Origin: a virus
Taxonomy: Duplodnaviria > Caudoviricetes
Length of the DNA stretch: 56,907 bases
IMG/VR virus record: IMGVR_UViG_3300021373_003004
Span: 1-56,907 of that record
Direction: 5' to 3' (one strand)
Below, piece by piece: positions 1,448-53,562 of the stretch. The notes beneath the pieces were generated by a model. It did no database searches. It saw only the letters and a program-made list of their open reading frames with translations, and was not told the origin of the DNA. Every line of letters starts with the position of its first letter. The stretch's first letter is position 1. Position numbers and translations under genes: made by a program.

Positions 1448-1466
1448 TATTTATACATTATTTATA
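1448..1466 (-). promoter_or_regulatory. Two tandem T4-type late promoters (TATAAATA)
   Basis: tatttata at 1448-1455 and 1459-1466 on +, just upstream of the ATG at 1420. Confidence 0.7.
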
Positions 1467-2758
1467 AAGCCTGATTGCTTTGCTCCTGTAGCGCTATCAA
1501 ACACCAAAAATTCAAAAAGATCTGTTTCACCAGAGTCTGTTCTTGGTGAAGCTGAATCGTTTAACATAGATATTTTATCAGAATCCCACAATAGATTTGA
1601 TCTAGTAGCAGTAGAAATAGTTGGTGAATATCTAGCTATTAGATCTGCATCTTGATCACCCATGAAAAGGAAACCATCTGGGTTACCACTAGTATCTGGT
1701 GTAAATTCAGCATGCCTTATAATAGCATCTGCAATAGGATTGCCGGTATAATTAGGATTATATGTAGAGTAGCTACCGCTAATCGTAGAAACATCAAACG
1801 GCGTTGATAAAGTGTGTTCAAAAAACGCTCTGTCACCAATTGCCCATAGCCATATCTTATCACCATTATGATTTATTATTGCTCGAGCAAAATTAGAATT
1901 TCCAGTAGTAGGTGTAACAAACTTAGAATCGTAAATTGTGCTTGTATCATAAGCAGTACTTAGATAAAAAGCTAAAATTTGATTGCTAGGTGATGCACTG
2001 GTGTCAACACCAACTAAAACATGTCCATCAGCATAAAATTGTATACCTTCTATATCAGGACTAGTGTCACTACTGTAATCTGATACGGTTATAGTGTTTT
2101 CTAATGTTCTTGTAGAATTTAAATCATACGCAGAACTCAGTGAAAATTCATACACATAGTTACCACTTCCACCGTTATAAGCAAAATATATTTTAGTGCC
2201 ATCATTATTAAACTCCATAGCACCATTATTGCTTGGATAAGTGTATATAGGTATGGATATAAATCCAGTATCAAATCTGACACTTTGGTCATAGTCGTTA
2301 TTATAGTTTGTCCCATCGCTATCTAAATCAAAAGGGTCGTTTAATGATAACCTTCTTACATAATTACGTCCGCTAGCATTATTATAATAGAAAAGCTTTG
2401 TCCCATCATGTGAAAATGTAAAATTTGTATGCCAGTCACTGCCCTGAGGACCCCAAGTTGTAGCACTTCCCAAGCTACCAAATGTAGGGCTAGTTCGTAC
2501 TGCACCTCTGCCATTAAATAGCAGGGTTACTTTCTTACTTTCACCTGGATCAGGCCAACCACTCATTGATAACTTTTCTTTTAACCTAGCTTTATTGGTT
2601 CCTGGATTAGGAATCTCAAAAATACTTCCTGTACTTAGATCTAAGTTAAGATTTCCTTCACGGCCGTCTACTACTCCACCATCACTATCACTAGTGTCAG
2701 TGACGTTAAAAACACTATTATCCGATATAGCAATTTTGTTTCCTATTTTAAACGCCAT
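1451..2758 (-). CDS. Putative receptor-binding/tail appendage protein with an inserted beta-propeller (MAFKI paralogue 1)
   Basis: Repeats F(S/N)xDGTK...(L/S)xxx(Y/F)DxS; N- and C-terminal segments shared with the two neighbours. Confidence 0.65.
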   Translation of the reverse strand: MAFKIGNKIAISDNSVFNVTDTSDSDGGVVDGREGNLNLDLSTGSIFEIPNPGTNKARLKEKLSMSGWPDPGESKKVTLLFNGRGAVRTSPTFGSLGSATTWGPQGSDWHTNFTFSHDGTKLFYYNNASGRNYVRRLSLNDPFDLDSDGTNYNNDYDQSVRFDTGFISIPIYTYPSNNGAMEFNNDGTKIYFAYNGGSGNYVYEFSLSSAYDLNSTRTLENTITVSDYSSDTSPDIEGIQFYADGHVLVGVDTSASPSNQILAFYLSTAYDTSTIYDSKFVTPTTGNSNFARAIINHNGDKIWLWAIGDRAFFEHTLSTPFDVSTISGSYSTYNPNYTGNPIADAIIRHAEFTPDTSGNPDGFLFMGDQDADLIARYSPTISTATRSNLLWDSDKISMLNDSASPRTDSGETDLFEFLVFDSATGAKQSGFINNV

Positions 2759-2760
2759 GG

Positions 2761-4056
2761 CTATCCCTTATAAAGTTCTTTTGCATACCAGTTACTACCA
2801 CTATCTATACTAATAAACTCTAAGTATGATGTTTCACCAGTTCCAGGGAAATCTATATAACCATCTTCAAAGTGCACATTTGCTGGAAAGGCAAACGTTT
2901 GAGGAACTTGGTTTCCAGTACTATCTTCAATTCTAAATAAGTATAAAAAATCAGCACCAGGACCGCCGTTTTGCTCTAGTCCATAATAATAATGACCGCC
3001 TGGTCTTACAGCAAAACGACCTATACCTTGTTGACCAGTTTGAATTACTGGTCTAGCATCACCTGGGCCAGTACCTGGACCAAAAGATGTAGAATAAGTA
3101 GAGTCTAAATGCCATGGGGTTAACCACTCTGTTTTATATAATTCTGAGGTAAATATGCTCTCATCTTCACCTAAAATATAAGTGTTTTCGGATGCTACTC
3201 TTAAATCCTGTCCGGATCTGATTCCATAACCAACCCTTTTATTCAATACCATAGAGCTAGAGTCAATTGACCATGGTGTTTCTAAATCCCACAATCTACT
3301 GATGCTATAATCATCATTACTTTGTATTATTTTAGTGCCGTCTCTTTTAATATCCCATCTATTTATTTCATTTGCATCTGATGCTGCACTTGAGACAGGC
3401 CATCGTATATATTCACCTAAGCTTGCTGTTGATAAATCCCAAGCAGATGACATGTCATATCTGTATAAATGAGTGCGGGTACCTCTAAATAAATAATTTC
3501 CTTCTTCACTAATACGTAAGGTTTCTGTCCAAGCACCATCACCTCCGGAGCTATCAGCTCCGGCTCCTAATGTTAATTCATCATCTACACTACCTAAACT
3601 GTTATATGCCCAAGCCGAACTTGGAGTATAGTGTTTAATTTTATTAGCTAGATGGTCATAGAAATACCAATGTAAACCATCTCTACTGACTTCGAAAGAC
3701 TGCATTTCTGCACCAGTACCAAATGGACTTGTAACAGCTACTTGAGTACTTGTAAATCTTCCAAAACCACTTCGGTTTTCATTTCCTGTTAATTTCAAAA
3801 CAAATCTTCGAGGATTTTCACCATAAGTAGCTTCATCAAAGGAAAAATTTAATATGTTAGAAACACCAGTACTATAGTCTACATCAGGGGCTGTAAGTTC
3901 AACTAAACTTGTACCCCAACCAAAATTTTTAGTATGGCCGCTAGCAGTACTACTAAACCCACCAGAGTCTACACCAAATAAATTAGTGACATCAGTACCT
4001 TCAGCAAATTGTGAAGAATCATTAATGATTATGTCAGACGATATCTTAAATGCCAT
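2761..4056 (-). CDS. Putative receptor-binding/tail appendage protein with an inserted beta-propeller (MAFKI paralogue 2)
   Basis: SSAWDLSTAS, ETPWSIDS and LTPWHLDS propeller-type repeats; C-terminal LEFISIDSGSNWY motif. Confidence 0.65.
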   Translation of the reverse strand: MAFKISSDIIINDSSQFAEGTDVTNLFGVDSGGFSSTASGHTKNFGWGTSLVELTAPDVDYSTGVSNILNFSFDEATYGENPRRFVLKLTGNENRSGFGRFTSTQVAVTSPFGTGAEMQSFEVSRDGLHWYFYDHLANKIKHYTPSSAWAYNSLGSVDDELTLGAGADSSGGDGAWTETLRISEEGNYLFRGTRTHLYRYDMSSAWDLSTASLGEYIRWPVSSAASDANEINRWDIKRDGTKIIQSNDDYSISRLWDLETPWSIDSSSMVLNKRVGYGIRSGQDLRVASENTYILGEDESIFTSELYKTEWLTPWHLDSTYSTSFGPGTGPGDARPVIQTGQQGIGRFAVRPGGHYYYGLEQNGGPGADFLYLFRIEDSTGNQVPQTFAFPANVHFEDGYIDFPGTGETSYLEFISIDSGSNWYAKELYKG

Positions 4057-4520
4057 TATCTACAATTCCTCATATAAACATTACCATAATATGAAGTACC
4101 AGTATCGTTTGTTACAAATTTAAAGATTTGAGTAAATGTATCACTTAAACCCGTGTTAGAGTTATTTAATGAGCCAACTGCATCCTTAAAATTTACAGTC
4201 TGATAATTATTAAATGTATTTGTAGTGTCATTATATACATCTTTGTAATTATGCCAAAACACATAAAATTCAAAATGTTTTATTGATGGATTTCCAAAAT
4301 CAAATCTTACATCTCCTGATACACCTGTGTAATCTGGCGTAAAATCAAAGTAATTACCTGTAGACTGATCTAGAGTTACAATTAAATTACCACTACTCAG
4401 AGCAGTTGAAACAACACCTTTTTTTCCTGATTGATTTCCCCTTGCTTCACCAGTATCTGTTATAACAGTACTAGATCCACCCTGATTTGTGTATAAACTA
4501 CTACCTATTTTGAAAGCCAT
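4056..4520 (-). CDS. Small virion protein (MAFKI paralogue 3, scaffold without propeller)
   Basis: LDQSTGNYF and FKFVTNDTGTSYYG match the termini of the two longer paralogues. Confidence 0.6.
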   Translation of the reverse strand: MAFKIGSSLYTNQGGSSTVITDTGEARGNQSGKKGVVSTALSSGNLIVTLDQSTGNYFDFTPDYTGVSGDVRFDFGNPSIKHFEFYVFWHNYKDVYNDTTNTFNNYQTVNFKDAVGSLNNSNTGLSDTFTQIFKFVTNDTGTSYYGNVYMRNCR

Positions 4521-4521
4521 A

Positions 4522-6186
4522 TTAGAGCCCTCTTTTTAGATCATCAATCTCGTGTTTTAGATCTTTAATAGCTTCTATCAATACACCAATCATCTTACTA
4601 TAGTCTACTGACTTCATACCACTGTCATCTGTCTTTACAACTTCAGGTAAAACAGTCTCAACTTCCTGGGCGATTACACCGACTTTACGATCAGTTTCAC
4701 CGATTTTATTATAATAAACGCCTCTAAGTGTATCTACTATCTCTAGTCCGTCAGTAATTGTTTCAACGTTCTCTTTAACACGCATATCAGATTGTGATGT
4801 GATATCACCTACAACGGTCATATCCTCACCACTCCATGTCGTGTTAGTAGTAGATGTTCCAGTTTTTAATATTACAGTACCAGAACCACCAGTTAAATCT
4901 ATCGTACCTCTATGCTCTGAAGCACCGTTGTCTCGTAGAAAAATTTGACCGCCATCAGCATCTAAGTAAATATCACCGCTAACATCAAATCTCAAATCAC
5001 CTGTTCTAGTATTTGTTTCCGGAAGTGCCGTAAACTGCCCACCAATTAGGTTAATTGTTCCATTAGAGTCAATAGTAGGAATCTCGATATTTCCACCCAA
5101 ACTTCCGGATACACCATTTACCGAGAATGTTGAGTTTGCTAGTTTAGCATTTGCAATCGAACCCGCTAGTTGATCGTTTGAAACACCACCTGTTTTAATG
5201 CTTACTTCACCACTAGATGTGCTAAATGACGCACTATTAAATGATGCAATACCTTTATTCGCTGTAGTTGCATCTTCACCTGCAATTTCACCAGCAGTAA
5301 TATCAATTCCCTCACCAGCTGAGAAGTGAGCTCTTACTTCAGATGCACTTGGTCCCGTGTATGTGAACACGCCTGTACCAGAAGCATAAGTTAGCGACCC
5401 ATCACCACCACCATCAGTAATACTTAAGCTACCTCTTGCTAGTTCGATGACCTCAGCTGAATCAACGATATCAACTGTAATATCATCACCCAAATTACCA
5501 GATACACCATTTACAGAGAATGTAGAATTTGTTATACTTGAATTAGGGATATTAGCTAGACTATATTTTACGGTAGCAGAATCGAACGTTATACCAGAAG
5601 CTGCATCTGCCTTTAATGTAGATTTAATCAAACCTACTGATGTTCCAGAGTCAGTAATATCAATAGTACCTGATGTGCCTAAAGCTATTTCAATACCGTT
5701 TACTGTTAGACTATTATTAGTTAGTTTACTATTTGCAATAGATCTATTAGCAATTGTAGCAATGACATTTGAGTCAGCAAAGTTGCTGTCAAACATAGCC
5801 TGAGCTTCAGCTGAATCTAAAGCAGATGCAATTGAAGCATTAATAGCGACTAAGTTACTATCGATCATAGATTGTGCTTCACCAGAATCCAACATAGAGT
5901 TGATTGCTGAAACAATATCTGAAGTTTCTGGTGTGTTCAGTAGTGCTAGATCACCTAAGCTACTGTCTAAACTGTTAATTGCGCTTACTAAATCGGTTTT
6001 TACATTTGTAGTAAGTGATGTTCTTGTACCTTGGTTACTGTCTACACTGTTAATGGCTGCTACAATATTTGTACTAGAGTCAGTATTCAATAGAGCAAGA
6101 TCACCAACAGAATCTACTAGTTTGTTAAAACTAGTTCTGAAAGTGTTAAAAGTCGAAGATAGATTAATTGGTGGAATCTTAGCCAT
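4522..6186 (-). CDS. Tail fibre protein with C-terminal peptidase S74 intramolecular chaperone
   Basis: SDMRVKENVETI...GVIAQEVETVLPEVV...VDYSKMIGVLIEAIKDL S74 signature; internal repeats GDLALLNT x2 and NSTFSVNGVSG x2. Confidence 0.9.
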   Translation of the reverse strand: MAKIPPINLSSTFNTFRTSFNKLVDSVGDLALLNTDSSTNIVAAINSVDSNQGTRTSLTTNVKTDLVSAINSLDSSLGDLALLNTPETSDIVSAINSMLDSGEAQSMIDSNLVAINASIASALDSAEAQAMFDSNFADSNVIATIANRSIANSKLTNNSLTVNGIEIALGTSGTIDITDSGTSVGLIKSTLKADAASGITFDSATVKYSLANIPNSSITNSTFSVNGVSGNLGDDITVDIVDSAEVIELARGSLSITDGGGDGSLTYASGTGVFTYTGPSASEVRAHFSAGEGIDITAGEIAGEDATTANKGIASFNSASFSTSSGEVSIKTGGVSNDQLAGSIANAKLANSTFSVNGVSGSLGGNIEIPTIDSNGTINLIGGQFTALPETNTRTGDLRFDVSGDIYLDADGGQIFLRDNGASEHRGTIDLTGGSGTVILKTGTSTTNTTWSGEDMTVVGDITSQSDMRVKENVETITDGLEIVDTLRGVYYNKIGETDRKVGVIAQEVETVLPEVVKTDDSGMKSVDYSKMIGVLIEAIKDLKHEIDDLKRGL

Positions 6187-6394
6187 TTGAATTCTTCTCT
6201 AATAGTTGTTGCAGCATGCCTTTAATATCATTAACATCACTTTTTAACTTATCTAGTTCTTCATCTTTTTCTTTTAGTTTTATTAACCGCTCGCGAGCTG
6301 CTTGTACTTTTCTACTATTTATGTTAATTAAAGCGCCAGTTTCACCGTCTCTTACTAAATCTGGATAACTTTCAACTTTCATATATTTCGCCAT
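6179..6394 (-). CDS. Small conserved T4-like protein with coiled-coil C-terminus
   Basis: KVE..PDLVRDGETGALIN motif; coupled within the late operon. Confidence 0.7.
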   Translation of the reverse strand: MAKYMKVESYPDLVRDGETGALININSRKVQAARERLIKLKEKDEELDKLKSDVNDIKGMLQQLLEKNSNG

Positions 6395-6401
6395 GCAACA
6401 C

Positions 6402-8066
6402 CTAAATTGTTGAAATAATTCTTAGGTTCTTAAATATAGGAACCTTAGTTGTAATTTCTGAATTCATGACAATTTTAACTTGGAACTGATCAAATTCAGG
6501 CAAATCAAACTGACTAAAGTAATATTCTTTAAATGTAAAGGTATCATTTGTAGCCATATCATCATAGTTTGATCTATTAGCTGTTGTTTGATTGGTGTTA
6601 AATTTTACCCAATTCTTATCACCAATTTGTGTTTGATCATTAGCTATTGCTGTTCTATACCATACAGTAAATGAAGATCTAGCTGGTCTATAAGCATCAA
6701 CAAAAACTTTCATAGACGAAGCTTTTTCTTTTAGTGTTACAACCTTCGTAATATGTCTAGCTAAAGATGACGCAGCAAATGGTGAGGTTTCTGGTACATA
6801 TGGAATAGTATGAACCATATTGAAACCACTTGCTCCATTACTATCATACCCATCGGCTCCAGCAAAAGCACCAGCAGAATCAGAGTTATCGATAAGGTGG
6901 TGTAAAGCTGTAATAGAGGTAGCGTTTGCGTTTATGTATGGAGCTGTATTTACATTTCCTGTATTTAAAATCACACCAACTTTTAATGATCCTTTTTGTA
7001 AACCTTTATCAGAGTCTTGGAACCTGTTTGCAATTACTGCAGGTCTCTCTGGTTCTTGCCACTTATTTAAATCAATATTACGTGAATGAATATTATAAGC
7101 GGCGTCTGTACCCCCGTAAGGTTTAAATGTTCTATACTGTATGTGTGATTTTATTCCTGTTGCAGTAGGAATAGAAACTGGCATATTTACTTTAAACTGA
7201 TCAAACACCTGTTGTCCTTCAGAAAACACTAAGTTTCCTCCAGATCTGATGTCAGAATCAGCCGCAGAGTCTGCGGTAATTGTATAACCAAACGGATCCC
7301 GGTTTTTTATAGTTCTTTTACCTAAGATACTGCTTCCATTCATACCAGCATAAGTAGTCGCTGAATCTAAGCCAGTGATTCTTACGGTATCACCATTCAT
7401 TAGACCATGATTAGGATGTAGTACCTTCACATCAGAATCAGTACTAGTAAAAAATAACGGATTAGTTTCTAAATTGTTTGTTGTAAGTTTTTCTGGTGCT
7501 GGAATAGCAGCACCAAATCTAGCTACACTATTTGTCTTTCTAAATGTAGCCTTATAAAGTTTAAATGTTAAATCCCGCTTTTGTTCAGCTGTCCACGTTG
7601 TGCCATTTGCTGAACTAAAGAACGAACCAACGTAAGGTTGATTGGTTACACGTTTTTCTGTAGTTCCGTAAACGAACTCACCCAATTCAGCTGTCCAAAC
7701 TTGATAATCACCAGGAGCAGCGTTTGTATGAATTACTAGTGCGACCTCAGTGTTATTAGGTACATATAACGGCGATTCAAATGTAAATTTCGTTTCTCCA
7801 GTGGTTGCATCAAACGCAGTGGATGCTGTTATGTCAGCTCTTGCTTTACTAGTAATTGTTCCAGGATAAACTTTAAGTCCAGAAGGATTACCGCCTTCTG
7901 TAACAGGCCTGATCTCTATATTTACTGGTAAGTTAGGAGAAGTTACAGCAGGTTTACTATAAAAATAAAGACCAACACCAGTCAAAACTACTCCACCAGG
8001 TTCTGTAATCCTAATGGTTTGAGCTACTGGGTTTGTAACTTGTGTTAGATTTAAGTATTGTGTCAT
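6402..8066 (-). CDS. Virion structural protein, C-terminal part of a DUF4815/VrlC-like protein
   Basis: PVAQT..GVVLTGVGLYF, GSFFSSANGTTWTAEQKRDLTF and FDQFQVKIVM...VPIFKNLRIIS motifs; own RBS. Confidence 0.75.
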   Translation of the reverse strand: MTQYLNLTQVTNPVAQTIRITEPGGVVLTGVGLYFYSKPAVTSPNLPVNIEIRPVTEGGNPSGLKVYPGTITSKARADITASTAFDATTGETKFTFESPLYVPNNTEVALVIHTNAAPGDYQVWTAELGEFVYGTTEKRVTNQPYVGSFFSSANGTTWTAEQKRDLTFKLYKATFRKTNSVARFGAAIPAPEKLTTNNLETNPLFFTSTDSDVKVLHPNHGLMNGDTVRITGLDSATTYAGMNGSSILGKRTIKNRDPFGYTITADSAADSDIRSGGNLVFSEGQQVFDQFKVNMPVSIPTATGIKSHIQYRTFKPYGGTDAAYNIHSRNIDLNKWQEPERPAVIANRFQDSDKGLQKGSLKVGVILNTGNVNTAPYINANATSITALHHLIDNSDSAGAFAGADGYDSNGASGFNMVHTIPYVPETSPFAASSLARHITKVVTLKEKASSMKVFVDAYRPARSSFTVWYRTAIANDQTQIGDKNWVKFNTNQTTANRSNYDDMATNDTFTFKEYYFSQFDLPEFDQFQVKIVMNSEITTKVPIFKNLRIISTI

Positions 8067-8078
8067 TATTTTTTCCTA

Positions 8079-9323
8079 TTAAACTACTTCACCATTTTCT
8101 CTGATGAATTGTACTTCTCCGCCAACAGTATCAAAAACCTTCATCCAGAATTTTTCTACGGGTTTAAATATCCAACCATATTTATTTTCACCATAATACC
8201 ACTTGCCATAGCATACTAATGGATCAGCAAATGTTTTTGTTACTACCCACTTTGTAACTTTAGACTTGCGCATCATAGGAACTAAGACTTCAGCTACTTT
8301 ATAATAACCTCGTCTATTTCGTTCAGTCATTTTTTCATCACGGTATCTACGAACTACCTTGTCCATAGTTCCATTACCGTAACGTGCTTCTAACATAATA
8401 AAGCAACATACAGCAGCAAGAATGCCCACAACTGCACCGGCAATACCGCCACCAACAACTGAGGCACCAATCACAGCCGCCGCGGCAGCACCGACAATTG
8501 CACCCTTTGCTGCTTCGTCTGCTACAGAGCCGTTTTTGTTTCCTAATAAGCCATCATCAATCGGATCATCATCTGGAGGAGCACCAATGGTGTTGAAGTC
8601 ATCGTCGTCATCCGGGTCTACATTTGGCAATTTACATACTATTTCTGTCGGTGGGTTTTCAGTCGATTCTTTCGTATCAATAGTTTCTGTATCTTTATCA
8701 GTATCATCTACAACATCCGGTTCATCTTCAATCTCCGGCTCAACCCAAACATCAACCTCTTCTGTCCAAGTAACTGTTCTAGTACCTGTCCTAGCTACAG
8801 AATAATAATCAATTCTATAATTTTCAACACCACCGTCACTTGTAAACTCTTGCGTGGCTTGAGACGTGCTCTCATTTGGGCTGTATTTACTGATGTCTAA
8901 TACAGTAAAGTTCCTTGTGCCAGCAGGGAAAGATAGCGCATCATTACTTTGAAGATAAAACACACCCTCAATAGATCCTGTATCATCAGAATAAATTTCC
9001 GACGTTGGACCACCTAAAGCTGTAGGAAATCCAGTTTCTGCAACATATTTTTCCCCAGGATTTCTCCTTGCATCGTCTTTCGAAAGATTATAAAAGTCTT
9101 CAACAGTAACACTATCAGTACTTACATAGTTTGTCACATTAATATTGTCGAAGAAAAAGAAATGACGTTCATTGGGTCTTAGACCAGATACTCTAAAGTA
9201 AATAAATTTCGGTCTAGCAATAGTCACATCATCAAAACCAGTATAAACTGATCTAGATTTAGTAACATAATAAGTATAACTCTCTGTGCCCGATCTTGTT
9301 ACAGTGTTAGTTACATAAGGCAT
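8079..9323 (-). CDS. Virion structural protein, middle part of a DUF4815/VrlC-like protein, fused to an acidic linker, hydrophobic segment and CFI-box-like C-terminal domain
   Basis: GLRPNERHFFFFDNINVT...FPAGTRNF motif; C-terminal CCFIMLEARY...RRYRD...GYY; AGGAG RBS. Confidence 0.7.
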   Translation of the reverse strand: MPYVTNTVTRSGTESYTYYVTKSRSVYTGFDDVTIARPKFIYFRVSGLRPNERHFFFFDNINVTNYVSTDSVTVEDFYNLSKDDARRNPGEKYVAETGFPTALGGPTSEIYSDDTGSIEGVFYLQSNDALSFPAGTRNFTVLDISKYSPNESTSQATQEFTSDGGVENYRIDYYSVARTGTRTVTWTEEVDVWVEPEIEDEPDVVDDTDKDTETIDTKESTENPPTEIVCKLPNVDPDDDDDFNTIGAPPDDDPIDDGLLGNKNGSVADEAAKGAIVGAAAAAVIGASVVGGGIAGAVVGILAAVCCFIMLEARYGNGTMDKVVRRYRDEKMTERNRRGYYKVAEVLVPMMRKSKVTKWVVTKTFADPLVCYGKWYYGENKYGWIFKPVEKFWMKVFDTVGGEVQFIRENGEVV

Positions 9324-9335
9324 TCTTTTCTCCTA

Positions 9336-12260
9336 TTAGTACTGAGTACTATTATCGTAATCTGATAGGTCGCCGTTAACAGCAACTTCTGATACAGATC
9401 CATTATTAACTGTTCTTCTTATATAGTAATTATCATGATCAGGAATCATTTCTAATGTACCTGTAAATCTAGCTAATTGTTGTCCATTAACAAAACTAGG
9501 AGATGAAGCTATCGCTTGATCAATTAAAACTTCTTCATCAAACTTAGGATAAATTAATGAGCCATATCTCTTTGTTCCGCTTGACATATCAGAATCATAA
9601 TATAAAGCAATATCCCTTTGAAGCGCTCTTGGAAGCATATAACCTTTACTTCTCTTTAGTGCAGCCTTATAATCTAAGTTAGGATTGACTAAAGACATTT
9701 TATGCGTTTCAAAGTTATCAGCAAAAAGTCCTGTTGATATACGCTCTAAACCATTTTCATCAATAACTGTTAAATTTGCAGTATTTAGTTCTGATAATGT
9801 TAGAGTTGAAATAATTTCTAAGTTATCTATTCTCTTTTCAAGAGAACGGATATCAGTCATTTTATATCCTCTGTTTACTATTTCTAATCTAGTAAAATCA
9901 TTTTTAGTTTTTGTATAAGGATTTAAAAATACATAATTTAATCCTAGATAACCATCAGGAATCTTTGGTGCTTTCAAAAATTCAACACCAGCCTGTGTTG
10001 CAATTCTTTCAATTCCTCCATTATCATTCATGACAAGTAGATCGATACGGCCAGTGTAGTAATCTACTTCACTGATTGATACAATATCTCTGTTTCTTGG
10101 AATGCGCAGTCTCTTATCGAAAGTTCCACCAGAATTTATTGTAGATCTAAAGTCAATTACGTTAGCTAAATTTTCGGATCTAGTAGAATTAGTTATAGTT
10201 AAATCAGGTATAGCACCATAATCAATACCATTATAAGAATTAACACTATAAAAATCTCCAGTACCATGTAAATAATAACTATATGAAACAGTTATGGTTG
10301 ATGCTGGAGTAGTATATCCTGTAATTAATTTGAGCGTTTCTGCGCCATAAAAACTAGCATTAGTTTTTGTATTTAAAGTAAATTTGTATGTAATATTTTC
10401 ACTAGTTGTGTCGTCAATTACACTAGTAATTGTACGAACATCAGTTTTAGACAGGGTCGCTATACCATTAACTACTGAAATAGATTCTGTATGAGTATCA
10501 TTCGTTTTAGGAATGCTTGTTCCTGTTGTATTCACATATGCTAAAAGAGATACATCTTTAGAAGCAGTTAGGCCAGAAATTTTAACCTCTGTTGTTCCAG
10601 CACCGCCACTATCAATTGTCAAAGAAGTTGTAACTTCTCCAGCACTGTCATAAGACAAAATCCACTCTGATTCATCAGCAAAATCTTCATCAGCAGCATT
10701 TGTTTGGAATACCGCCTCACCAGCTCCATTAGTAGTGGTTGTCAAAACATCAGCAACTGTCATACTAACAGTTCCTGTTATTTCTTTAGTAAATTTTTCA
10801 GGCAATCTAAATAACATAGAAGTCTGATCAGGATCAATAATTTGTGATCTATTATCAATCAAATCTATGTTTGCTTTGTTAGCTGCATCAGATCCAAAAC
10901 TTTTAGCTGTACCAATATCTCTAAGTACACCAGACCCATTTGAATCTACATTTATATCAAACATATGAACTCTAAAGTTCGTGCTATTTACTTTATCAAT
11001 GGATCTAATTCTAGCTGTGCCTAACGATGTACCTTGTAAATCAGCTGAATCGTAAATATTAACAGTAGTATAATCACCTACTTTTGATACTAGTCCAGTT
11101 AAATTTGCTGATGTTACTGGATAGTAATTACCGTAATTAGCAGCAACATTTTCTGTAGTTACAGTTTTTTTGTCAGATGTAGTTCTTGGTTTTGGAACTC
11201 TTATTGATGTGTTAGTACTTTTTTCTATTCTGTAACCATTAACAAATGCAACCCCTGGTTTTATAATGTATCGAAGATACGCATCGTCGCTGTCACTCAA
11301 TACTTCTAAACTTAATCTATCTTTTTCTTTTGATACAAAATCACCACTGATATCAGCAGTTCTTCTAGCTAGGGTATCACCCAAAGTATTCAGAATATTA
11401 TCGTTATATTGTAATGGTTCGACAGCACCATTTCTTAATCTTAATAATTTTATAAATGTTTCTGTGTCTTCATCGACATTACTCAATAAGTCTAGAGTTA
11501 ATTTAATTCTATAGCGGTCTGCACCTGGAGATGTTAAATTAGGAGTAGAACCGGCATTGTCATACAAAGCTAAATCATCTGACACAGTTACTATTTCTTC
11601 AGTAACTTTATAAACAATAGTATCATTGGGAGATTGTGAATACTTAGATAAAACCAATGATTGTTTTGGTACAAATACAAAATGACCTGATTGAAAAACT
11701 TCTGTGCTCGGAACATTAATTATTGAAGCTCTACCGGTAGCTGGGTTAGCAACCGTGTTGATTGATTGAACTGTTAGTGTTCCTAAATCAGTTGTTAGAT
11801 CTTGACCAGCGGCTAATCCTAAAATTGTTTCTGTATCGGCGGATCTAGATGTATCATTTGCATCAACTACAGAATACAATATAGTTGCTGGATCAGCACC
11901 AGTAGCTGGGATAACCTTTAAAATAGTAATTTTTACACTTAATGGATTTGTGGCATAAGTGTTTTCTAATTCAGTATAATTAGTAGGAAGAGCATTTGTA
12001 GACGTATCTAACTTAGCAAAAAATACAGAGAAATCTTTCAGCTGAGCTGTACCAAGATTTCCTGAAATTACGCTACTTTCTTTAAAGAGATAACGTCCCA
12101 GTCTTTCAATTTCTTTATTAATAATAGTTTGTAACTGAGTAAGCTCACGAGCTTGCAGTGCACGACCACTATTAAATACAATTCTATGATAGTTATCACT
12201 ATCACGAAAGTCATCTTTGTAGTTACTTAGAAACGTATTTTTTAAAACTGTAGTAGCCAT
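9336..12260 (-). CDS. DUF4815/VrlC-like large virion structural protein, N-terminal part
   Basis: YKDDF..NYHRIVFNSGRALQARELTQLQT, SPGADRYRIKL, LARRT and GYKMTDIRSLEKRIDNLE motifs. Confidence 0.85.
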   Translation of the reverse strand: MATTVLKNTFLSNYKDDFRDSDNYHRIVFNSGRALQARELTQLQTIINKEIERLGRYLFKESSVISGNLGTAQLKDFSVFFAKLDTSTNALPTNYTELENTYATNPLSVKITILKVIPATGADPATILYSVVDANDTSRSADTETILGLAAGQDLTTDLGTLTVQSINTVANPATGRASIINVPSTEVFQSGHFVFVPKQSLVLSKYSQSPNDTIVYKVTEEIVTVSDDLALYDNAGSTPNLTSPGADRYRIKLTLDLLSNVDEDTETFIKLLRLRNGAVEPLQYNDNILNTLGDTLARRTADISGDFVSKEKDRLSLEVLSDSDDAYLRYIIKPGVAFVNGYRIEKSTNTSIRVPKPRTTSDKKTVTTENVAANYGNYYPVTSANLTGLVSKVGDYTTVNIYDSADLQGTSLGTARIRSIDKVNSTNFRVHMFDINVDSNGSGVLRDIGTAKSFGSDAANKANIDLIDNRSQIIDPDQTSMLFRLPEKFTKEITGTVSMTVADVLTTTTNGAGEAVFQTNAADEDFADESEWILSYDSAGEVTTSLTIDSGGAGTTEVKISGLTASKDVSLLAYVNTTGTSIPKTNDTHTESISVVNGIATLSKTDVRTITSVIDDTTSENITYKFTLNTKTNASFYGAETLKLITGYTTPASTITVSYSYYLHGTGDFYSVNSYNGIDYGAIPDLTITNSTRSENLANVIDFRSTINSGGTFDKRLRIPRNRDIVSISEVDYYTGRIDLLVMNDNGGIERIATQAGVEFLKAPKIPDGYLGLNYVFLNPYTKTKNDFTRLEIVNRGYKMTDIRSLEKRIDNLEIISTLTLSELNTANLTVIDENGLERISTGLFADNFETHKMSLVNPNLDYKAALKRSKGYMLPRALQRDIALYYDSDMSSGTKRYGSLIYPKFDEEVLIDQAIASSPSFVNGQQLARFTGTLEMIPDHDNYYIRRTVNNGSVSEVAVNGDLSDYDNSTQY

Positions 12261-12269
12261 GATCTACCC

Positions 12270-13613
12270 TTAAAGTTGAATAATAATTTTAACATCTTCA
12301 GTCTGATCAGCAGACCTAGTCACCGAAAGGTTTCTATTATCTATATAGTGCATTTCACCTGAATATACGTCAAAACCAGGTACAATATTTGCTGAATCAG
12401 CTGTTCTATTAGCTGTAGCAGTTGATGTTGTTACAATTTCACCATCGGTAAATGATTTAAATCCAGTTGTTTCAGTTTGGTGATACCAAATAGTTGTAGA
12501 ATCGTCATAAAAATCAATATAAGCTTGTGCAGCAGAAGATGCACCAGTAATTAATTGATCCGCTTGGAAATCATCAGTTGCTGATAATCTCATTTGTTTT
12601 AGTGCCAATGCTGTGTTACCTGTAAATGCAGCGGTAGAATCATATTGCAATGGATTTTTCAACAACGCTAATTGTCTGAAATCGTTACCAGTTACAAACA
12701 CACCTTCTTCAGTACCGTCAGCCAAAACATTAAAGTTGACTGCTCTTCCTCTTAAATCTCTTGTTGGATCAGCACCAATACCAGCAGGTGGAGCAAAAAC
12801 TGGAACTATTGTAGCACCAGTACCACCGCCACCACTTATTGTCACATTGGCGTAATCATAACCAGAACCAAATGGGAAACCACCAGCTGATTCATCAACT
12901 TCTATCGCGCCGATTGTATTAGAAGATGTTACAACAGCTCTAGCGTGAGCACCTTTACCATTACCTACGATAGTGATAGTAGGTGTACCTGTGTAACCAC
13001 TACCAGCAGCTGTTACTCTATAGCCAATAATTTGGCCTGCAGTCGCTGCTTGTTGAACTAAATACTGGTTATAGTAAGCATCGCCCGGAGCAGCTGAGTC
13101 AATTAATTGGACAGGCATAAAGTTAGCTGTTAAAAATCTTGTAGCGTCACCTGCAGAAATTGTATACAAATATTTCCAGATATACCCATCTGAAAGTTCT
13201 GTTAAAGTTGTAGCAGATGTGCTTGTAGGTTGTACAGTGGATGTAACAGCATTACCATTAGAGTCTTTACCCTGACGAATACAAACATAAACGTTATTCT
13301 CATCTGTTATAACATAATAACGTGAAGCTTGACCTACTGAGTTATCGTTATACTGTTGATATGTTGTACCTGATGACCAGTTGTATCTTGTAACAACGAG
13401 TGAAGTATCTAGTACAGCTTTAATAGACTGCATCTTATATCTAAACTGACGAATCTCGCGTTCAGTATTAGCAGGTGTTGGAGGAGTATCAGTACTATCC
13501 CACGCTTCTGATGCACCAAGTGCAATGTAATATCGATTAGAAGAATCCTCAAACTCTGTAAGAAGAGAATTTACTAATTGATTTTTAACTCTATCTGTAA
13601 TTATTGCTACCAT
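12270..13613 (-). CDS. gp8: Baseplate wedge subunit gp8
   Basis: RYNWSSGTTYQQY, YYVITDENNVYVC, DGYIWKYLYTI, NDFRQLALLKNP and QTEDVKIIIQL motifs. Confidence 0.9.
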   Translation of the reverse strand: MVAIITDRVKNQLVNSLLTEFEDSSNRYYIALGASEAWDSTDTPPTPANTEREIRQFRYKMQSIKAVLDTSLVVTRYNWSSGTTYQQYNDNSVGQASRYYVITDENNVYVCIRQGKDSNGNAVTSTVQPTSTSATTLTELSDGYIWKYLYTISAGDATRFLTANFMPVQLIDSAAPGDAYYNQYLVQQAATAGQIIGYRVTAAGSGYTGTPTITIVGNGKGAHARAVVTSSNTIGAIEVDESAGGFPFGSGYDYANVTISGGGGTGATIVPVFAPPAGIGADPTRDLRGRAVNFNVLADGTEEGVFVTGNDFRQLALLKNPLQYDSTAAFTGNTALALKQMRLSATDDFQADQLITGASSAAQAYIDFYDDSTTIWYHQTETTGFKSFTDGEIVTTSTATANRTADSANIVPGFDVYSGEMHYIDNRNLSVTRSADQTEDVKIIIQL

Positions 13614-13625
13614 GTTCTTATCTCA

Positions 13626-14645
13626 TTAAACTATTGCTATGCCGTTACCGGCTGAGTCTGTACCGATCATATGCCATTTATTCTCAACACTTTCATAAAT
13701 AAACTGTGACATGGCATTTGGAGCTAATCTAACGTTACCAGCTGCCATTAGAGCTCCAGCACCTGAATCTGCTTCAAGAGTTGCTGTTGCTGTGCCTCTA
13801 TTTAGAATAATCTTTAATTCACCACTAACACTACCATCTCTAATAATAAAGTTTTGTGCAGATGTTGGATTCAATACAATAAACGTATTTTTTTCCATAT
13901 CTCTATCGCCAGAGGAATCCATTTGCGCGCTGGCATAGGCTATCTTGCCAAGTCTAGTTACACCTGTACCTTTATTCTCTATATTAATACCTACATTTGT
14001 ATCAGTACCAGTTGCTGAAATTGTTGGCCTATTACCAGCAGCAGCATTAGCTAGTGTTAGTTCATTTGCTGCAGAAGCTGTAGCTGTAACCTTTAATAGT
14101 TCGGCACCATTCACGTCTTGAATAGCTGTACCAATTTTTGGTGATGTCAGCGTTTTATTTGTTAACGTCTGTGTCTGTGCATTAAAAGTTAATGTATCAC
14201 TATCAGCAAGTACCGGTAAGTTAATATTAATATTTTTTGATGTTAAATTACCAGGTTTTATGTTATAAGTGTGACTAGCATTTGTATCATTAATAACGAT
14301 ACCATCTAAAATAGGATTATTTAATGTAGCACTATCTAATGTTTTATTTGTCAGCGTTTGTGTTGCGGTGTTTATTGTTACTGTTCCAGCTGAATCAGGT
14401 AAAGTAAAGATAAGTTTTGAAGCCCCTTCAGTATGAGTAAGAATAGAATTATTTGTTACACCTATATACTCTAAACCACTGTCAACTAATCTAACGGCAG
14501 TTGTAAGAGATGTACCAGAGTCACCTCCACCCAATTGTGAATACAATTCAATAAAGTTTTCATTAATTTTAGTACCAGCTGTACGAAGTGTATCACCTGT
14601 TCCATCATTGGCAGTTGAGCCGGTATTAAGATTTTGCCTTGCCAT
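13626..14645 (-). CDS. Baseplate wedge/fibre connector with gp9/gp10-like N-terminus
   Basis: GSTANDGTGDTLRTAGTKINENFIELY N-terminal motif; TQTLTNKTL fibre repeats. Confidence 0.8.
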   Translation of the reverse strand: MARQNLNTGSTANDGTGDTLRTAGTKINENFIELYSQLGGGDSGTSLTTAVRLVDSGLEYIGVTNNSILTHTEGASKLIFTLPDSAGTVTINTATQTLTNKTLDSATLNNPILDGIVINDTNASHTYNIKPGNLTSKNININLPVLADSDTLTFNAQTQTLTNKTLTSPKIGTAIQDVNGAELLKVTATASAANELTLANAAAGNRPTISATGTDTNVGINIENKGTGVTRLGKIAYASAQMDSSGDRDMEKNTFIVLNPTSAQNFIIRDGSVSGELKIILNRGTATATLEADSGAGALMAAGNVRLAPNAMSQFIYESVENKWHMIGTDSAGNGIAIV

Positions 14646-14670
14646 AGGGTTTCCTCAATTTACTTAAGAG

Positions 14671-14678
14671 TATTTATA
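14671..14678 (-). promoter_or_regulatory. T4-type late promoter TATAAATA
   Basis: Intergenic tatttata upstream of the ATG at 14645. Confidence 0.75.
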
Positions 14679-14684
14679 ATAGTT

Positions 14685-15689
14685 TTAGTAGGTTCCAATT
14701 GAATCATACCAATCCTGATCTAAAGTTTGTTGTCTTCTTGTTGTATCCATTGTTACTGCTGTGCCATCAGAATCATTATCATCAAATGTTGGCAGTGACG
14801 GTGATAGAGCAGTAAGAATATTTGGATAGCTACTATCAAGTTCAGATAGTGTCTGATCAGAATCAAGTGGTAGTAGATCAACACGGTAAGTTGTGCTAGC
14901 ACTATCGATAAGACCAGTGAGATCTGCCGAAGGCTGGCTAGTAAGATCAAACAGAGCTTCACCAGTTGTAACAACATCTGTAGAAACAACCTTAGCAATT
15001 TCAGGCATCAGTGTGCTTACACCAGTTGTATTGACTGACGCAATTTGAACCTGCCCTCCCAAATACATTCCAGCAGGATGAACAAATAATTTATAGACCT
15101 CTCTCCAATTGTCAAGAGGAATGTCTGACTTAATCAGAATTGCTAAGGTTTGATATAACTTATCATCAGTTAAAAATCTTTGAGATTCAGCACCAATCTT
15201 CGAAGCACTTGATAATATTTGTTCTCCAGCTGCATTACTACTGTCTAGAGTGTAATCAACTAATGGTCCGACTTTAAACACCTGCTCTTTTGGGTATGAT
15301 ACTTCTGGATCTGTTCCAAAAAAAGCTCTAAAGAACTGTTGAATACTATATCGAGTACCTTTAGATCTGTATAGAATATTAGAAAACTTTGAAGCTTCAC
15401 GTTTGTTAATAAATCCACCAAAGTAAGCCTGTCCTAGTAGAATCTCATCTTCAATATATTGTAAGAGTTCAGTATCAACCTGTGTTAGATCACGTGAACG
15501 ATATAAATCTCTTACTTTTTGGTCTGGATTACCAGTCTCTTCCATCCATTCATAATAAGCTTCAAGTAGTGAAATTAAATTTGGATAGTCATCAATAAAA
15601 TGTTCAGGTAATACATTAGTAACTTCAGAACGCTGAAGGTTTAAATCACGCCTATTATTATCTCTGAGTGTTTTATCTAATTGTGTCAT
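14685..15689 (-). CDS. gp7: Baseplate wedge initiator, gp7-like (short form)
   Basis: LLEAYYEWME, YRSKGT..SIQQFFRAFFG and VHPAGMYLGG motifs; follows gp6. Confidence 0.75.
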   Translation of the reverse strand: MTQLDKTLRDNNRRDLNLQRSEVTNVLPEHFIDDYPNLISLLEAYYEWMEETGNPDQKVRDLYRSRDLTQVDTELLQYIEDEILLGQAYFGGFINKREASKFSNILYRSKGTRYSIQQFFRAFFGTDPEVSYPKEQVFKVGPLVDYTLDSSNAAGEQILSSASKIGAESQRFLTDDKLYQTLAILIKSDIPLDNWREVYKLFVHPAGMYLGGQVQIASVNTTGVSTLMPEIAKVVSTDVVTTGEALFDLTSQPSADLTGLIDSASTTYRVDLLPLDSDQTLSELDSSYPNILTALSPSLPTFDDNDSDGTAVTMDTTRRQQTLDQDWYDSIGTY

Positions 15690-17686: not shown

Positions 17687-17687
17687 G

Positions 17688-18134
17688 TTATCTTAACCTT
17701 GATATAACTGTTGTAAACACTACTATTTCTTTAGTGTTTATTACTTGAAATTCTAAGGTAACATCAAGACTGTTTTGATCTGGTCTTGTGTTTACTCCAA
17801 TTTTTAGAATCTTTGCTCTTGGTTCATACGTTTGAATAGCACGAATAATATTGTTCTTAATATCACCTTTGATATCATCATATGCTAATTCAAATAAAAA
17901 TTCTCTAATATTACCACCGAATTTAGGTAAAAACGGTTTTTCAAAATGATTAGTTTGAATAAGATTTTTAATAGCTTGTTTTACTGCTGCCGCATCTCTT
18001 TTCTTATAGATCTCGCCATTAGGCTTTGCAGTAAATGTCAAGTCAATGTCAGTATACAGCTTGCTTCTACTAGTAATAATACTACTAGTATTTAAACTTC
18101 CATCTTCTTTTGATAAGACTCTTGTTGTCGCCAT
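17688..18134 (-). CDS. gp25: Baseplate wedge subunit gp25
   Basis: AVKQAIKNLIQTNHFEKPFLPKFGGNIREFLFE and YEPRA motifs. Confidence 0.95.
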   Translation of the reverse strand: MATTRVLSKEDGSLNTSSIITSRSKLYTDIDLTFTAKPNGEIYKKRDAAAVKQAIKNLIQTNHFEKPFLPKFGGNIREFLFELAYDDIKGDIKNNIIRAIQTYEPRAKILKIGVNTRPDQNSLDVTLEFQVINTKEIVVFTTVISRLR

Positions 18135-18153
18135 TTTACAATCTTTTTCTTTT

Positions 18154-20743: not shown

Positions 20744-20744
20744 A

Positions 20745-42720: not shown

Positions 42721-42750
42721 ATTCTACACTGTAATTTTGTGATTGTACAC
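42721..42750 (-). promoter_or_regulatory. Early promoter (TGTACA-N17-TAGAAT)
   Basis: Copy of the repeated motif; ATG 6 nt after the -10 box. Confidence 0.72.
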
Positions 42751-53387: not shown

Positions 53388-53562
53388 TCGTTTCTGCTAA
53401 ACTATGAGCTTCTTTAAAGTTGTTTCTAAAACGATTACCTTTAGCACCGTCTCTTATAAAAGATTCTAAATTATCTATAGTACCATTAAAGTCATTCAAT
53501 TTGTAATCACGAACAATTTCTTCCCATTGATATCTTAGCGACAAAATTCTAAAAATCGTCAT
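53335..53562 (-). CDS. Hypothetical protein
   Basis: Overlap-coupled ORF; GTIDNL...NRFR. Confidence 0.55.
   Translation of the reverse strand: MTIFRILSLRYQWEEIVRDYKLNDFNGTIDNLESFIRDGAKGNRFRNNFKEAHSLAETIVYHYGLMEPLGSKLER

What the first reader, a model, noticed from the sequence alone, without database searches (positions are those of the whole stretch)
1451..15689. Asp-Ser dipeptides are enriched in outer virion proteins and nearly absent from inner ones: candidate O-glycosylation sequon
Seen (hand counts of DS): S74 fibre 14 (against 2 reversed SD); gp9/10-like 8, i.e. 8 of its 18 Asp are followed by Ser; gp8 7; gp7-like 6; each long MAFKI protein 7; VrlC-like parts 7, 1 and 7. That is about 64 in ~4,700 aa, plus 5 in the truncated first ORF. 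The adjacent inner baseplate/hub proteins at 15689-24642 (gp6, gp25, three gp5-locus proteins, hub; ~2,970 aa, also Asp- and Ser-rich) have only 1. The residue after DS is mostly A/D/G/N/S/T. Established: Bacteroidota O-glycosylate proteins at D-(S/T)-x sequons, and some actinobacteriophages glycosylate their virions with their own glycosyltransferases. Inference: DS is a selected modification site on exposed fibre and wedge proteins, avoided in buried or injected proteins, and written by the glycosyltransferase cluster at 42.7-54.7 kb, giving a glycan shield on a T4-like tail.
Basis: partly seen in the sequence, partly recalled or inferred. Interest (0 to 1): 0.92.

Follow-up and report, generated by a model that had tools for sequence, protein, structure and literature searches.

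The report
Asp-Ser motif in phage tail proteins
A group of uncultured marine T4-like phages carries far too many Asp-Ser-small-residue motifs in its outer baseplate and fibre proteins and almost none in the inner baseplate; the pattern is real and under selection, but nothing ties it to the phage's sugar-transferase genes.

Summary
Every hand count was reproduced. The ten outer ORFs (4,636 aa) hold 64 DS against 33.3 expected. The six inner ORFs (2,969 aa) hold 1 against 14.7. No shuffle out of 5,000, global or local, reached either value. DS is the most enriched dipeptide in the outer set and the most depleted in the inner set.

The real unit is D-S-[A/G/S/T/D/N]: 60 observed against 16.8 expected. 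The effect acts on the protein, not the DNA. It recurs in all 62 related IMG/VR loci that could be scored and in two more distant relatives. It is absent from T4, C48C1, HTVC008M, Melnitz and S-PM2.

In fibres, DS opens helical repeat modules. In the wedge proteins, 15 conserved DS columns carry most of the excess.

The glycosylation reading is not supported. The motif fails the Bacteroidota sequon test. Exposed sheath and LamG-type fibre proteins are not enriched. Inner depletion also occurs in lineages without enrichment. The same GT25 and GT8-like genes occur in a complete relative (G007) and in another phage (G006) that show no DS signal.

My best reading is a lineage-specific capping or turn motif (about 0.45). 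A Ser-specific modification site remains possible (about 0.15).

The parts
2..1420 (-). 3'-open ORF (473 aa shown), fibre-like, DS 5 against 2.25 expected
   Evidence: no Pfam family
1451..2758 (-). MAFKI protein a (435 aa), DS 7 against 4.78, SD 8
   Evidence: no Pfam family above cut-off
2761..4056 (-). MAFKI protein b (431 aa), DS 7 against 3.6, SD 2
4056..4520 (-). short MAFKI protein (154 aa), DS 0
4522..6186 (-). fibre with a C-terminal Peptidase_S74 chaperone domain (554 aa). DS 14 against 5.9, SD 2. Nine DS lie in the N-terminal repeats (residues 25-138), each opening a helix-like segment.
   Evidence: (PF13884, E 4.7e-14)
6402..8066 (-). 554-aa outer protein, DS 7 against 2.09
8079..9323 (-). 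414-aa outer protein, not enriched (DS 1 against 2.06); orthologues depleted (12 against 27.1)
9336..12260 (-). DUF4815 (VrlC-like) protein, 974 aa, neutral (DS 7 against 7.05; orthologues 195 against 190.7)
12270..13613 (-). gp8-like wedge protein (447 aa), DS 7 against 2.43; six DS columns conserved in at least 50% of 30 homologues
   Evidence: (PF09215)
13626..14645 (-). gp9/gp10-like protein (339 aa), DS 8 of 18 Asp against 1.33 expected; four conserved DS columns
   Evidence: (PF07880)
14685..15689 (-). wedge subunit (gp7-like, 334 aa), DS 6 against 2.96; five conserved DS columns
   Evidence: (PF23786)
15689..17686 (-). gp6 (665 aa), DS 0 against 4.09; orthologues 68 against 319.7
17688..18134 (-). 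gp25 (148 aa), DS 0; orthologues 9 against 48.7
18164..24642 (-). Four inner hub / gp5-locus proteins of 859, 515, 320 and 462 aa. The first three carry weak DUF2345 and Peptidase_M15_3 matches (both below the Pfam cut-off), Amidase_2, and Gp5_OB plus Phage_lysozyme2 respectively. Together DS 1 against 10.1.
42750..54734 (-). Sugar-modification cluster: four ORFs with GT25 matches, GT8-like paralogues, methyltransferases, a sulfotransferase, a radical SAM/SPASM enzyme and a weak 2OG-oxygenase match. Considered as the 'writer' of the motif; no link to it was found.

Best explanation
The feature is a short motif, hydrophobic-D-S-[A/D/G/S/N/T]-[G/T/N], fixed and multiplied in the peripheral baseplate (gp7-like, gp8, gp9/10-like) and in rod-like fibre proteins. 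It occurs in one group of uncultured marine T4-like myophages related to Kyanoviridae.

I think it most likely acts in cis as a local folding element. The Asp carboxylate and the Ser hydroxyl cap free backbone amides. The small residue and the Gly that follow allow a tight turn.

In fibres, each DS opens a short amphipathic helix of a repeat module, so the DS count follows the number of modules. In the wedge proteins, DS sits in strand-turn-strand loops at 4-6 conserved positions per protein.

The near absence of DS from the inner baseplate is a separate and older property of those protein families. It is shared with relatives that lack the outer enrichment.

Shown here: the statistics, the protein-level origin, the clade distribution, the conserved columns and the sequence periodicity. 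Inferred: the capping role itself, because no 3D model could be made.
For: Motif definition: DS followed by a small residue is 60 against 16.8 expected; DS followed by any other residue is 4 against 16.5. DS[AGSTDN][GTN] is 29 against 4.3.

Fibres (163 DS sites in 8 proteins): hydrophobic fraction is 0.58 at -1, 0.37/0.45 at +3/+4, 0.50/0.39 at +7/+8 and 0.45 at +12, against a background of 0.29, with few Gly/Pro from +3 to +9. This is helical periodicity with a hydrophobic residue just before the cap. The repeats are visible by eye.

The same DS-initiated repeats occur in the giant gp9/10 protein of C48C1, which has no Pfam GT25 match.

Wedge orthologues (553 sites): hydrophobic at -6 to -2, Gly/Pro raised at -1 and +3, hydrophobic again at +5 to +7.

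Most of the wedge excess comes from conserved columns. DS has 15 columns conserved in at least 50% of sequences across the three alignments; the next dipeptide (TL) has 7. In variable columns DS is only 0.54-1.08 of expectation.

DT-small is neutral or depleted. This fits the recalled, untested point that beta-branched Thr is disfavoured at such turn positions.

A trans-acting writer among the GT genes is not supported. No gene family separates the DS-rich genomes from the DS-poor ones.
Against: The specificity is sharper than generic capping rules predict. N-S-small is not enriched (13/15.1 in the window, 22/25.3 in G2, 12/9.7 in G008, 8/7.9 in G009). E-S-small is depleted. D-A, D-G and D-N followed by a small residue are neutral in the window, G008 and G009; D-G-small is raised in G1 and G2, as it also is in C48C1 and HTVC008M.

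Asp and Ser are about equally conserved and tend to be lost together.

At DS columns conserved in the clade, outgroup gp8 proteins have NS, ES, EP or ST. The same fold therefore works without DS.

Several non-homologous proteins shifted to DS in the same lineages, and T4 orthologues show nothing. That pattern is what a shared trans-acting factor would produce: a modifying enzyme, a binding partner or an ion.

No structure could be predicted, so the cap or turn location is inferred from sequence alone.
Confidence: 0.45

Rival explanations
1. One reading: D-S-small is a Ser-specific acceptor site for O-glycosylation of virion proteins in the host cytoplasm by phage-encoded glycosyltransferases. 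It is kept on exposed proteins and avoided on buried or injected ones.
For: The requirement is strict for Asp, for Ser and for a small next residue, across non-homologous proteins. Sites in several proteins shifted to DS in the same lineages. A glycan-building cluster is present in every DS-rich genome with enough coverage: the window, G1, G2, G008 and G009. G003 and G005 also carry GT25, and their loci L032 and L033 are DS-enriched in the wedge. GT25 is absent from 5 of 5 named relatives (C48C1, HTVC008M, Melnitz, S-PM2, P-SSM7), and the four of these that were scored lack the DS signal. There is precedent for phage-encoded virion glycosylation in mycobacteriophages (Freeman 2023, seen only as a citation and a one-sentence summary in PMC12619734). 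Pelagimyophage fibre regions are known to hold GT genes of unproven target (PMC7029224, passages).
Against: G007 is a complete genome with 5 GT25 matches and GT8-like homologues at 27-53% identity to the window's genes. It has no DS over-dispersion (rank 172 of 244) and wedge DS of 10 against 8.3. G006 has GT25 and GT8-like genes, and three PHROG 'virion structural' proteins with DS 28 against 26.3. No gene family is present in the DS-rich genomes and absent from the DS-poor ones. Exposed proteins are not enriched: sheath 1/2.9, portal 2/2.7, LamG-type fibres 1/6.5, 4/10.8 and 2/5.6 in G1. Inner depletion occurs without outer enrichment. The excess is mostly at conserved sites rather than turning over. 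Non-virion proteins do not consistently avoid the motif. There is no direct chemical evidence.
Confidence: 0.15
2. D-S-small is recognised or used by some factor other than the GT cluster. Candidates are another modification of Ser, a divalent-cation or hydration site suited to seawater, or a docking site for a fibre-assembly factor or for neighbouring fibres in the baseplate network.
For: The same specificity and lineage-shift arguments apply as for the glycosylation rival. The trait is patchy among relatives: present in the window clade, G008 and G009, weak in G007, absent in C48C1. It is restricted to baseplate periphery and rod-like fibres rather than to all exposed proteins.
Against: No candidate gene tracks the trait, although G008 and G009 are only 60% and 54% complete. 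No known binding or modification motif of this form was found in two literature searches. Nothing here tests chemistry.
Confidence: 0.2
3. The pattern is historical accident plus repeat amplification. A few ancestral DS sites and DS-bearing repeat units were inherited by all clade members, with no selection on DS as such.
For: Relatives are not independent samples. Fibre counts are inflated by internal repeats. Most wedge excess lies in conserved columns.
Against: DS is the top outlier among about 185-250 dipeptides in three genomes. It has twice as many conserved columns as any other dipeptide. The trait spans lineages with only 41-49% gp6 identity (G008, G009) and yet is weak in G007, which is 60% identical over the first 480 of gp6's 665 residues. 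The constraint on the next residue, 60 of 64, is not expected from drift.
Confidence: 0.1

Closest known systems
Bacteroidota general O-glycosylation sequon D-(S/T)-(A/I/L/V/M/T) (motif as given in the abstract of PMC8550257, seen in the search listing)
   Same: Asp immediately before the hydroxy residue is required. DSA, the commonest triplet here (16 of 64), fits the sequon.
   Different: Thr is not used: DT is 34/37.3 and DT[AILVMT] is 10 against 14.8. The largest excess, DS[DGSN] at 39 against 10.7, lies outside the sequon. The whole sequon is not enriched (34 against 27.6). From recall, that system acts on exported proteins in the periplasm, whereas virions assemble in the cytoplasm. The nearest named phages infect SAR11, Methylophilales and cyanobacteria.
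Virion O-glycosylation in mycobacteriophages by phage-encoded glycosyltransferases (Freeman et al. 2023; paper not held; known from a citation and summary sentence in PMC12619734)
   Same: A phage carrying its own GT genes could decorate its own virion.
   Different: There the glycans sit at the C-termini of capsid and tail-tube subunits. Here the motif is internal and limited to baseplate periphery and fibres. The sheath and portal of relative G1 are not enriched. No glycan has been shown.
Helix N-cap / hydrophobic-staple and type I turn preferences (textbook structural motifs, recalled, not from a call)
   Same: A hydrophobic residue before the cap, Asp at the cap, helical periodicity after it in fibres, and small residues plus Gly after it in wedge loops.
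   Different: Generic rules accept Asn, Ser or Thr at the cap and many residues next to it. Here only Asp-Ser is enriched, and only in certain lineages.
Host-recognition cluster of pelagimyophages, with GT genes among the fibre genes (PMC7029224, passages read)
   Same: A marine T4-like myophage with a large set of GT genes on the same stretch of genome as the fibre and baseplate genes, and PhoH nearby.
   Different: Those authors propose modification of the host O-chain. HTVC008M shows no DS signal (rank 177 of 245) and has no GT25 match.
Ser-Asp repeat glycosylation by SdgA/SdgB in staphylococci (recalled, not from a call)
   Same: Ser next to Asp is glycosylated by soluble transferases.
   Different: Those substrates are long tandem (SD)n arrays. 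Here DS sites are isolated and SD is not enriched (32/33.3).

Membership tests
Bacteroidota-type O-glycosylation sequon | Ser and Thr both serve as acceptor after Asp | tested here: not met
   Outer set DT 34 against 37.3. DT[AILVMT] 10 against 14.8; DT[DGSN] 15 against 12.0.
Bacteroidota-type O-glycosylation sequon | The third residue is A/I/L/V/M/T | tested here: not met
   24 of 64 DS sites fit. DS[DGSN] is 39 against 10.7, with 0 of 1,000 shuffles reaching it. The whole sequon is 34 against 27.6, with 122 of 1,000 shuffles reaching it.
Bacteroidota-type O-glycosylation sequon | Substrates are exported and modified in the periplasm of a Bacteroidota host | not tested
   The host is unknown. 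The closest named phages infect SAR11, Methylophilales and cyanobacteria. No signal-peptide analysis was run.
Phage-encoded virion glycosylation (mycobacteriophage type) | Glycan chemically detected on virion proteins | not testable with these tools
   Needs mass spectrometry or glycan staining of virions.
Phage-encoded virion glycosylation (mycobacteriophage type) | The modification depends on the phage's GT genes; the proxy used here is co-occurrence of the GT genes with the candidate site | tested here: not met
   G007 and G006 carry homologues of all core GT25 and GT8-like genes (5 and 2 Pfam GT25 matches) but show no DS over-dispersion (ranks 172 of 244 and 192 of 207).
Helix N-cap with hydrophobic staple / tight turn | A hydrophobic residue before the cap and helical periodicity after it (fibres); strand-turn-strand pattern (wedge) | tested here: met
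   Fibres: 0.58 at -1, with peaks at +3/4, +7/8 and +12. Wedge: hydrophobic at -6 to -2 and +5 to +7, Gly/Pro raised at -1 and +3.
Helix N-cap with hydrophobic staple / tight turn | The cap residue is interchangeable (Asp, Asn, Ser, Thr) | tested here: not met
   N-S-small, S-S-small and T-S-small are not enriched in the DS-rich genomes, apart from a weak N-S-small excess in G1 (69 against 52.4).
Helix N-cap with hydrophobic staple / tight turn | Location at helix starts or turns in 3D | not testable with these tools
PDB relatives align only over the N-terminal 40 residues of gp9/10.
T4-like baseplate (assignment of the proteins) | Pfam matches above the curated cut-off for gp6, gp25, gp8, the gp9/10 N-terminus, wedge subunit, gp53 and gp5 OB/lysozyme | tested here: met
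   gp6 is 39.5% identical over 98% of its length to phage C48C1.

The most novel reading that the evidence does not exclude
D-S-[small] is a Ser-specific acceptor site for a cytoplasmic, phage-directed modification of peripheral baseplate and fibre proteins. O-glycosylation is the leading candidate. The writer would be a particular paralogue or a factor not resolved by presence or absence of the GT25/GT8-like core. That would make this the first sequon-guided modification of the virion in T4-like phages.
Probability: 0.15. Interest if true: 0.85.

Novelty: new variant of a known kind. Interest (0 to 1): 0.5.

Why it matters
A single dipeptide that is both the most enriched and the most depleted in neighbouring sets of virion proteins is an unusual kind of signal. 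It recurs across dozens of uncultured marine phage genomes.

If it is a folding element, it gives a simple sequence marker for a family of fibre repeat modules and for a distinct type of wedge protein in abundant ocean phages.

If it is a modification or binding site, it would reveal an unrecognised layer of virion chemistry. It would also give the many orphan sugar-transferase genes of marine myophages a testable target.

Either way, the work yields a precise motif, named proteins and contrasting genomes (DS-rich G009 against DS-poor G007) for a direct experiment.

Tried and rejected
DNA-level cause: rejected. Ser in DS uses AGY in 24 of 64 cases, against 154 of 429 overall. GANTC density is unremarkable (56 against 46.6 in the outer region, 24 against 28.9 in the inner region).

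Local composition: rejected. 0 of 5,000 block shuffles reached the observed values.

A general property of T4-like baseplates: rejected. T4 has DS 57 against 56.0 over 30 structural proteins. C48C1, HTVC008M, Melnitz and S-PM2 have DS over-dispersion ranks of 197/250, 177/245, 70/243 and 116/260. They do show a weak trend in the same direction: inner 0.34-0.64, outer 1.06-1.25.

Bacteroidota sequon: rejected.

GT presence as a predictor: it looked promising after (GT25 in 4 of 5 clade contigs, 0 of 5 named relatives). It was overturned by G007 and G006. G004's lack of GT25 is uninformative, because by my reading of its coordinates the contig ends before the expected position of the cluster.

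Gene-content search for a 'writer': no family is present in all four DS-rich genomes and absent from the DS-poor ones. Relaxing to 3 of 4 gave only further GT8-like paralogues and a six-gene block that G2 lacks. G008 and G009 are incomplete, so this is weak negative evidence.

Searches with the window's GT25 and GT8-like proteins in named phages found 4 weak records and none, respectively.

NCBIfam gave no specific name for the radical SAM enzyme or the other cluster proteins.

PDB sequence searches gave no template that covers the DS sites.

Literature: three searches on phage virion glycosylation and searches on Asp-Ser with tail fibres and on cyanophage virion glycoproteins found no report of this motif or of glycosylated marine T4-like virions in the held library. 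Supplementary files were not consulted.

Full report
WHAT THE WINDOW IS. The 56.9-kb contig is the whole record held for this genome. It has 33-39% G+C. It encodes a T4-type baseplate on the minus strand. Pfam places gp6, gp25, gp53, a gp5 OB/lysozyme protein and an amidase at 15.7-27 kb; an M15 peptidase domain there matches just below the cut-off. gp8, a gp9/10 N-terminal domain, a wedge subunit, DUF4815 and an S74-chaperone fibre lie at 1.4-15.7 kb. The best named relative of gp6 is phage C48C1 (39.5% identity over 98%). Next come Methylophilales phage Melnitz, Pelagibacter phage HTVC008M and cyanomyoviruses. This is therefore an uncultured marine T4-like myophage. Nothing points to a Bacteroidota host.

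Every hand count was reproduced.
- Outer set: 64 DS against 33.3 expected.
- Inner set: 1 against 14.7.
- Among all dipeptides with expectation above 3, DS is the most enriched in the outer set (z 5.3) and the most depleted in the inner set (z -3.6). SD and DT are neutral in both sets.
- No shuffle out of 5,000, global or in 15-residue blocks, reaches either value.
- The other 46 ORFs are near neutral (27 against 33.5).
- The effect acts on the protein. Both Ser codon families are used in background proportion (AGY 24 of 64 against 154 of 429), and GANTC sites are not skewed.

THE REAL MOTIF. DS followed by A/G/S/T/D/N occurs 60 times against 16.8 expected. DS followed by anything else occurs 4 times against 16.5. 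The next position favours Gly, 17 of 63 sites and 3.3-fold over background. DS[AGSTDN][GTN] is 29 against 4.3. A hydrophobic residue precedes Asp in 56% of sites, against 31% background.

The specificity is narrow. N-S-small, E-S-small, S-S-small, T-S-small, D-T-small, D-A-small and D-N-small are neutral or depleted in the DS-rich genomes, apart from a weak N-S-small excess in G1 (69 against 52.4). D-G-small is neutral in the window, G008 and G009 but raised in G1 and G2, as it also is in C48C1 and HTVC008M.

DISTRIBUTION.
- Eighty IMG/VR loci share gp6 at 54-92% identity. Their orthologues repeat the pattern. gp7-like 432/181, gp9/10-like 279/115.7 and gp8 236/113.9 are enriched. gp6 68/319.7, gp25 9/48.7 and gp53 8/30.7 are depleted. 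DUF4815 is neutral and the 414-aa protein is depleted.
- All 62 clade loci with at least two wedge orthologues show D-S-small at 2.3-8.4 times expectation. C48C1 shows 0 against 1.9.
- In two near-complete relatives (G1 152 kb, G2 147 kb) the genome-wide DS count equals expectation. Even so, DS is the first and second most over-dispersed dipeptide across proteins. In the window it ranks first of 185.
- T4 (57 against 56.0 over 30 proteins) and C48C1, HTVC008M, Melnitz and S-PM2 (ranks 197, 177, 70 and 116 of about 250) lack the signal.
- Two more distant relatives have it strongly. G009 ranks 1 of 145, with 124 against 62.4 and fibres at 35/8.7 and 25/7.7. G008 ranks 4 of 109.

'OUTER VERSUS INNER' IS TOO SIMPLE. 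In G1 the sheath (1/2.9), portal (2/2.7), terminase and three of four large LamG- or MAFKI-like fibre proteins (1/6.5, 4/10.8, 4/7.3; the fourth 8/10.4) are neutral or depleted. The enriched proteins are the three wedge proteins, several rod-like fibres and a 336-aa protein beside the neck genes (17 against 3.3).

Inner-baseplate depletion also occurs where there is no outer enrichment: C48C1 4/11.9, HTVC008M 6/10.7, Melnitz 10/16.1, S-PM2 23/36.1 and G007 9/18.6. T4 shows none.

SEQUENCE CONTEXT. In fibres, DS opens repeat modules of the form hydrophobic-DS-A-Y/E-hydrophobic-x-x-R/L. After DS, hydrophobic positions recur at +3/4, +7/8 and +12, with few Gly or Pro. That is the pattern of a short amphipathic helix with a capping residue and a hydrophobic staple.

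Similar DS-initiated repeats occur in the giant gp9/10 protein of C48C1. Other DS-bearing repeats occur in HTVC008M fibres. Neither phage has a Pfam GT25 match.

In the wedge proteins the flanks look like strand-turn-strand. Most of the excess lies in conserved columns. DS has 15 columns conserved in at least half of the sequences across the three alignments, and the next dipeptide has 7. In variable columns DS is 0.54-1.08 of expectation, against roughly 0.5-0.9 for most control dipeptides. Asp and Ser are about equally conserved and tend to be lost together. At these columns outgroup gp8 proteins carry NS, ES, EP or ST.

THE GLYCOSYLTRANSFERASE CLUSTER. The region 42.7-54.7 kb holds four ORFs with GT25 matches, two GT8-like paralogues (Atlas clusters in which 12-13% of members carry PF01501), several methyltransferases, a sulfotransferase, a radical SAM/SPASM enzyme and a weak 2OG-oxygenase match. 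Only the GT25 and GT8-like genes are conserved in both G1 and G2. The methyltransferases and the sulfotransferase are mostly private to the window.

At first the link looked good: GT25 in 4 of 5 clade contigs and in 0 of 5 named relatives. It then broke. G007 is a complete 144-kb genome with terminal repeats and gp6 60% identical over residues 1-480. It has five GT25 matches and homologues of every core GT gene (27-53% identity). Its DS rank is nevertheless 172 of 244, and its wedge DS is 10 against 8.3. G006, a fragment of a different and larger phage, also has the GT genes and shows no DS signal in its virion proteins. No gene family separates DS-rich from DS-poor genomes.

COMPARISON WITH KNOWN SYSTEMS. 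The Bacteroidota sequon D-(S/T)-(A/I/L/V/M/T) (abstract of PMC8550257) is not what is enriched. Mycobacteriophage virion glycans sit at capsid and tail-tube C-termini (summary sentence in PMC12619734; the original paper is not held). Pelagimyophage fibre regions contain GT genes that their authors assign to host O-chain modification (PMC7029224, passages). None of the three searches on phage virion glycosylation, nor the searches on Asp-Ser with tail fibres or on cyanophage virion glycoproteins, found a report of this motif or of glycosylated marine T4-like virions.

VERDICT. The signal is real, strong, narrow in sequence and restricted to certain lineages.
- Most likely (about 0.45) it is a cis-acting capping or turn element that was multiplied with fibre repeat modules and fixed at a handful of sites per wedge protein.
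- The sharp Asp-and-Ser specificity, and the parallel shift in several unrelated proteins, are not fully explained by that reading. They keep open a trans-acting cause: glycosylation about 0.15, another factor about 0.2.
- Pure inheritance without selection is about 0.1.

LIMITS. G008, G009 and G006 are incomplete. Relatives are not independent samples, so counts over loci show consistency rather than significance.

Noticed in passing
window 15689-24642: Asp-Pro is the most enriched dipeptide in the inner baseplate proteins (17 against 5.8, z 4.6). It is also raised in G2 (16/8.7) and S-PM2 (35/20.4) inner proteins but not in G1 (10/8.3). The inner proteins may use D-P where the outer ones use D-S.
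   Followed up: partly
window 1451-15689: Asp in DS is encoded by GAC more often than Asp overall (22 of 64 against 74 of 354). This is a mild codon bias at these sites.
   Followed up: no
window 18164-23254: The gp5 locus is split into three proteins that carry three different cell-wall hydrolase domains: a Peptidase_M15_3 match just below the cut-off at the C-terminus of the 859-aa protein, Amidase_2 in the 515-aa protein, and Phage_lysozyme2 with Gp5_OB in the 320-aa protein.
   Followed up: no
window 42750-54734: Only the GT25 and GT8-like genes of the sugar cluster are conserved across relatives. The methyltransferases at 46379-47604 and 48268-48786, the sulfotransferase at 47571-48281 and several ORFs without a family are mostly private to the window. 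The radical SAM/SPASM gene 51594-52553 is 62-71% identical in G2, G009, G007 and C48C1 but absent from G1.
   Followed up: partly
L092:10587-11597 (G1 50587-51597): A 336-aa protein between the neck protein and the terminase genes has 17 DS against 3.3 expected, nearly all opening 9-15-residue helical repeats. It has no Pfam family and may be a neck fibre or whisker.
   Followed up: partly
G009 87926-93354 (L224:11926-17354): Two fibre proteins (983 and 817 aa) have 35 and 25 DS against 8.7 and 7.7 expected. They are built from recurring modules such as T-H-DS-A-A-V-Q-G-Q-I and V-DS-A-Y/T-V-Q-P-L-A-R. These are the highest DS counts seen, with excesses of about 3-4 fold.
   Followed up: partly
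L091:12071-14815 and L093:4458-7850 (G1): Large distal fibre proteins with Laminin_G_3 / concanavalin-like lectin domains are DS-depleted (2/5.6 and 1/6.5). They also give a secondary Pfam match to the lectin-fold N-terminal receptor-binding domain family of clostridial neurotoxins. This shows that not all exposed fibre proteins carry the motif.
   Followed up: no
window 13626-14645: The gp9/10-like protein contains a twice-repeated T-Q-T-L-T-N-K-T-L element in the consensus of 33 homologues. Its first 40 residues align to T4 gp10 and gp9 in solved baseplates.
   Followed up: no
window 30192-31826: A 544-aa plus-strand ORF has no convincing family (a weak Baculo_PEP_C match below the cut-off) and has a homologue only in HTVC008M (25% identity) among the ten genomes compared.
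   Followed up: no
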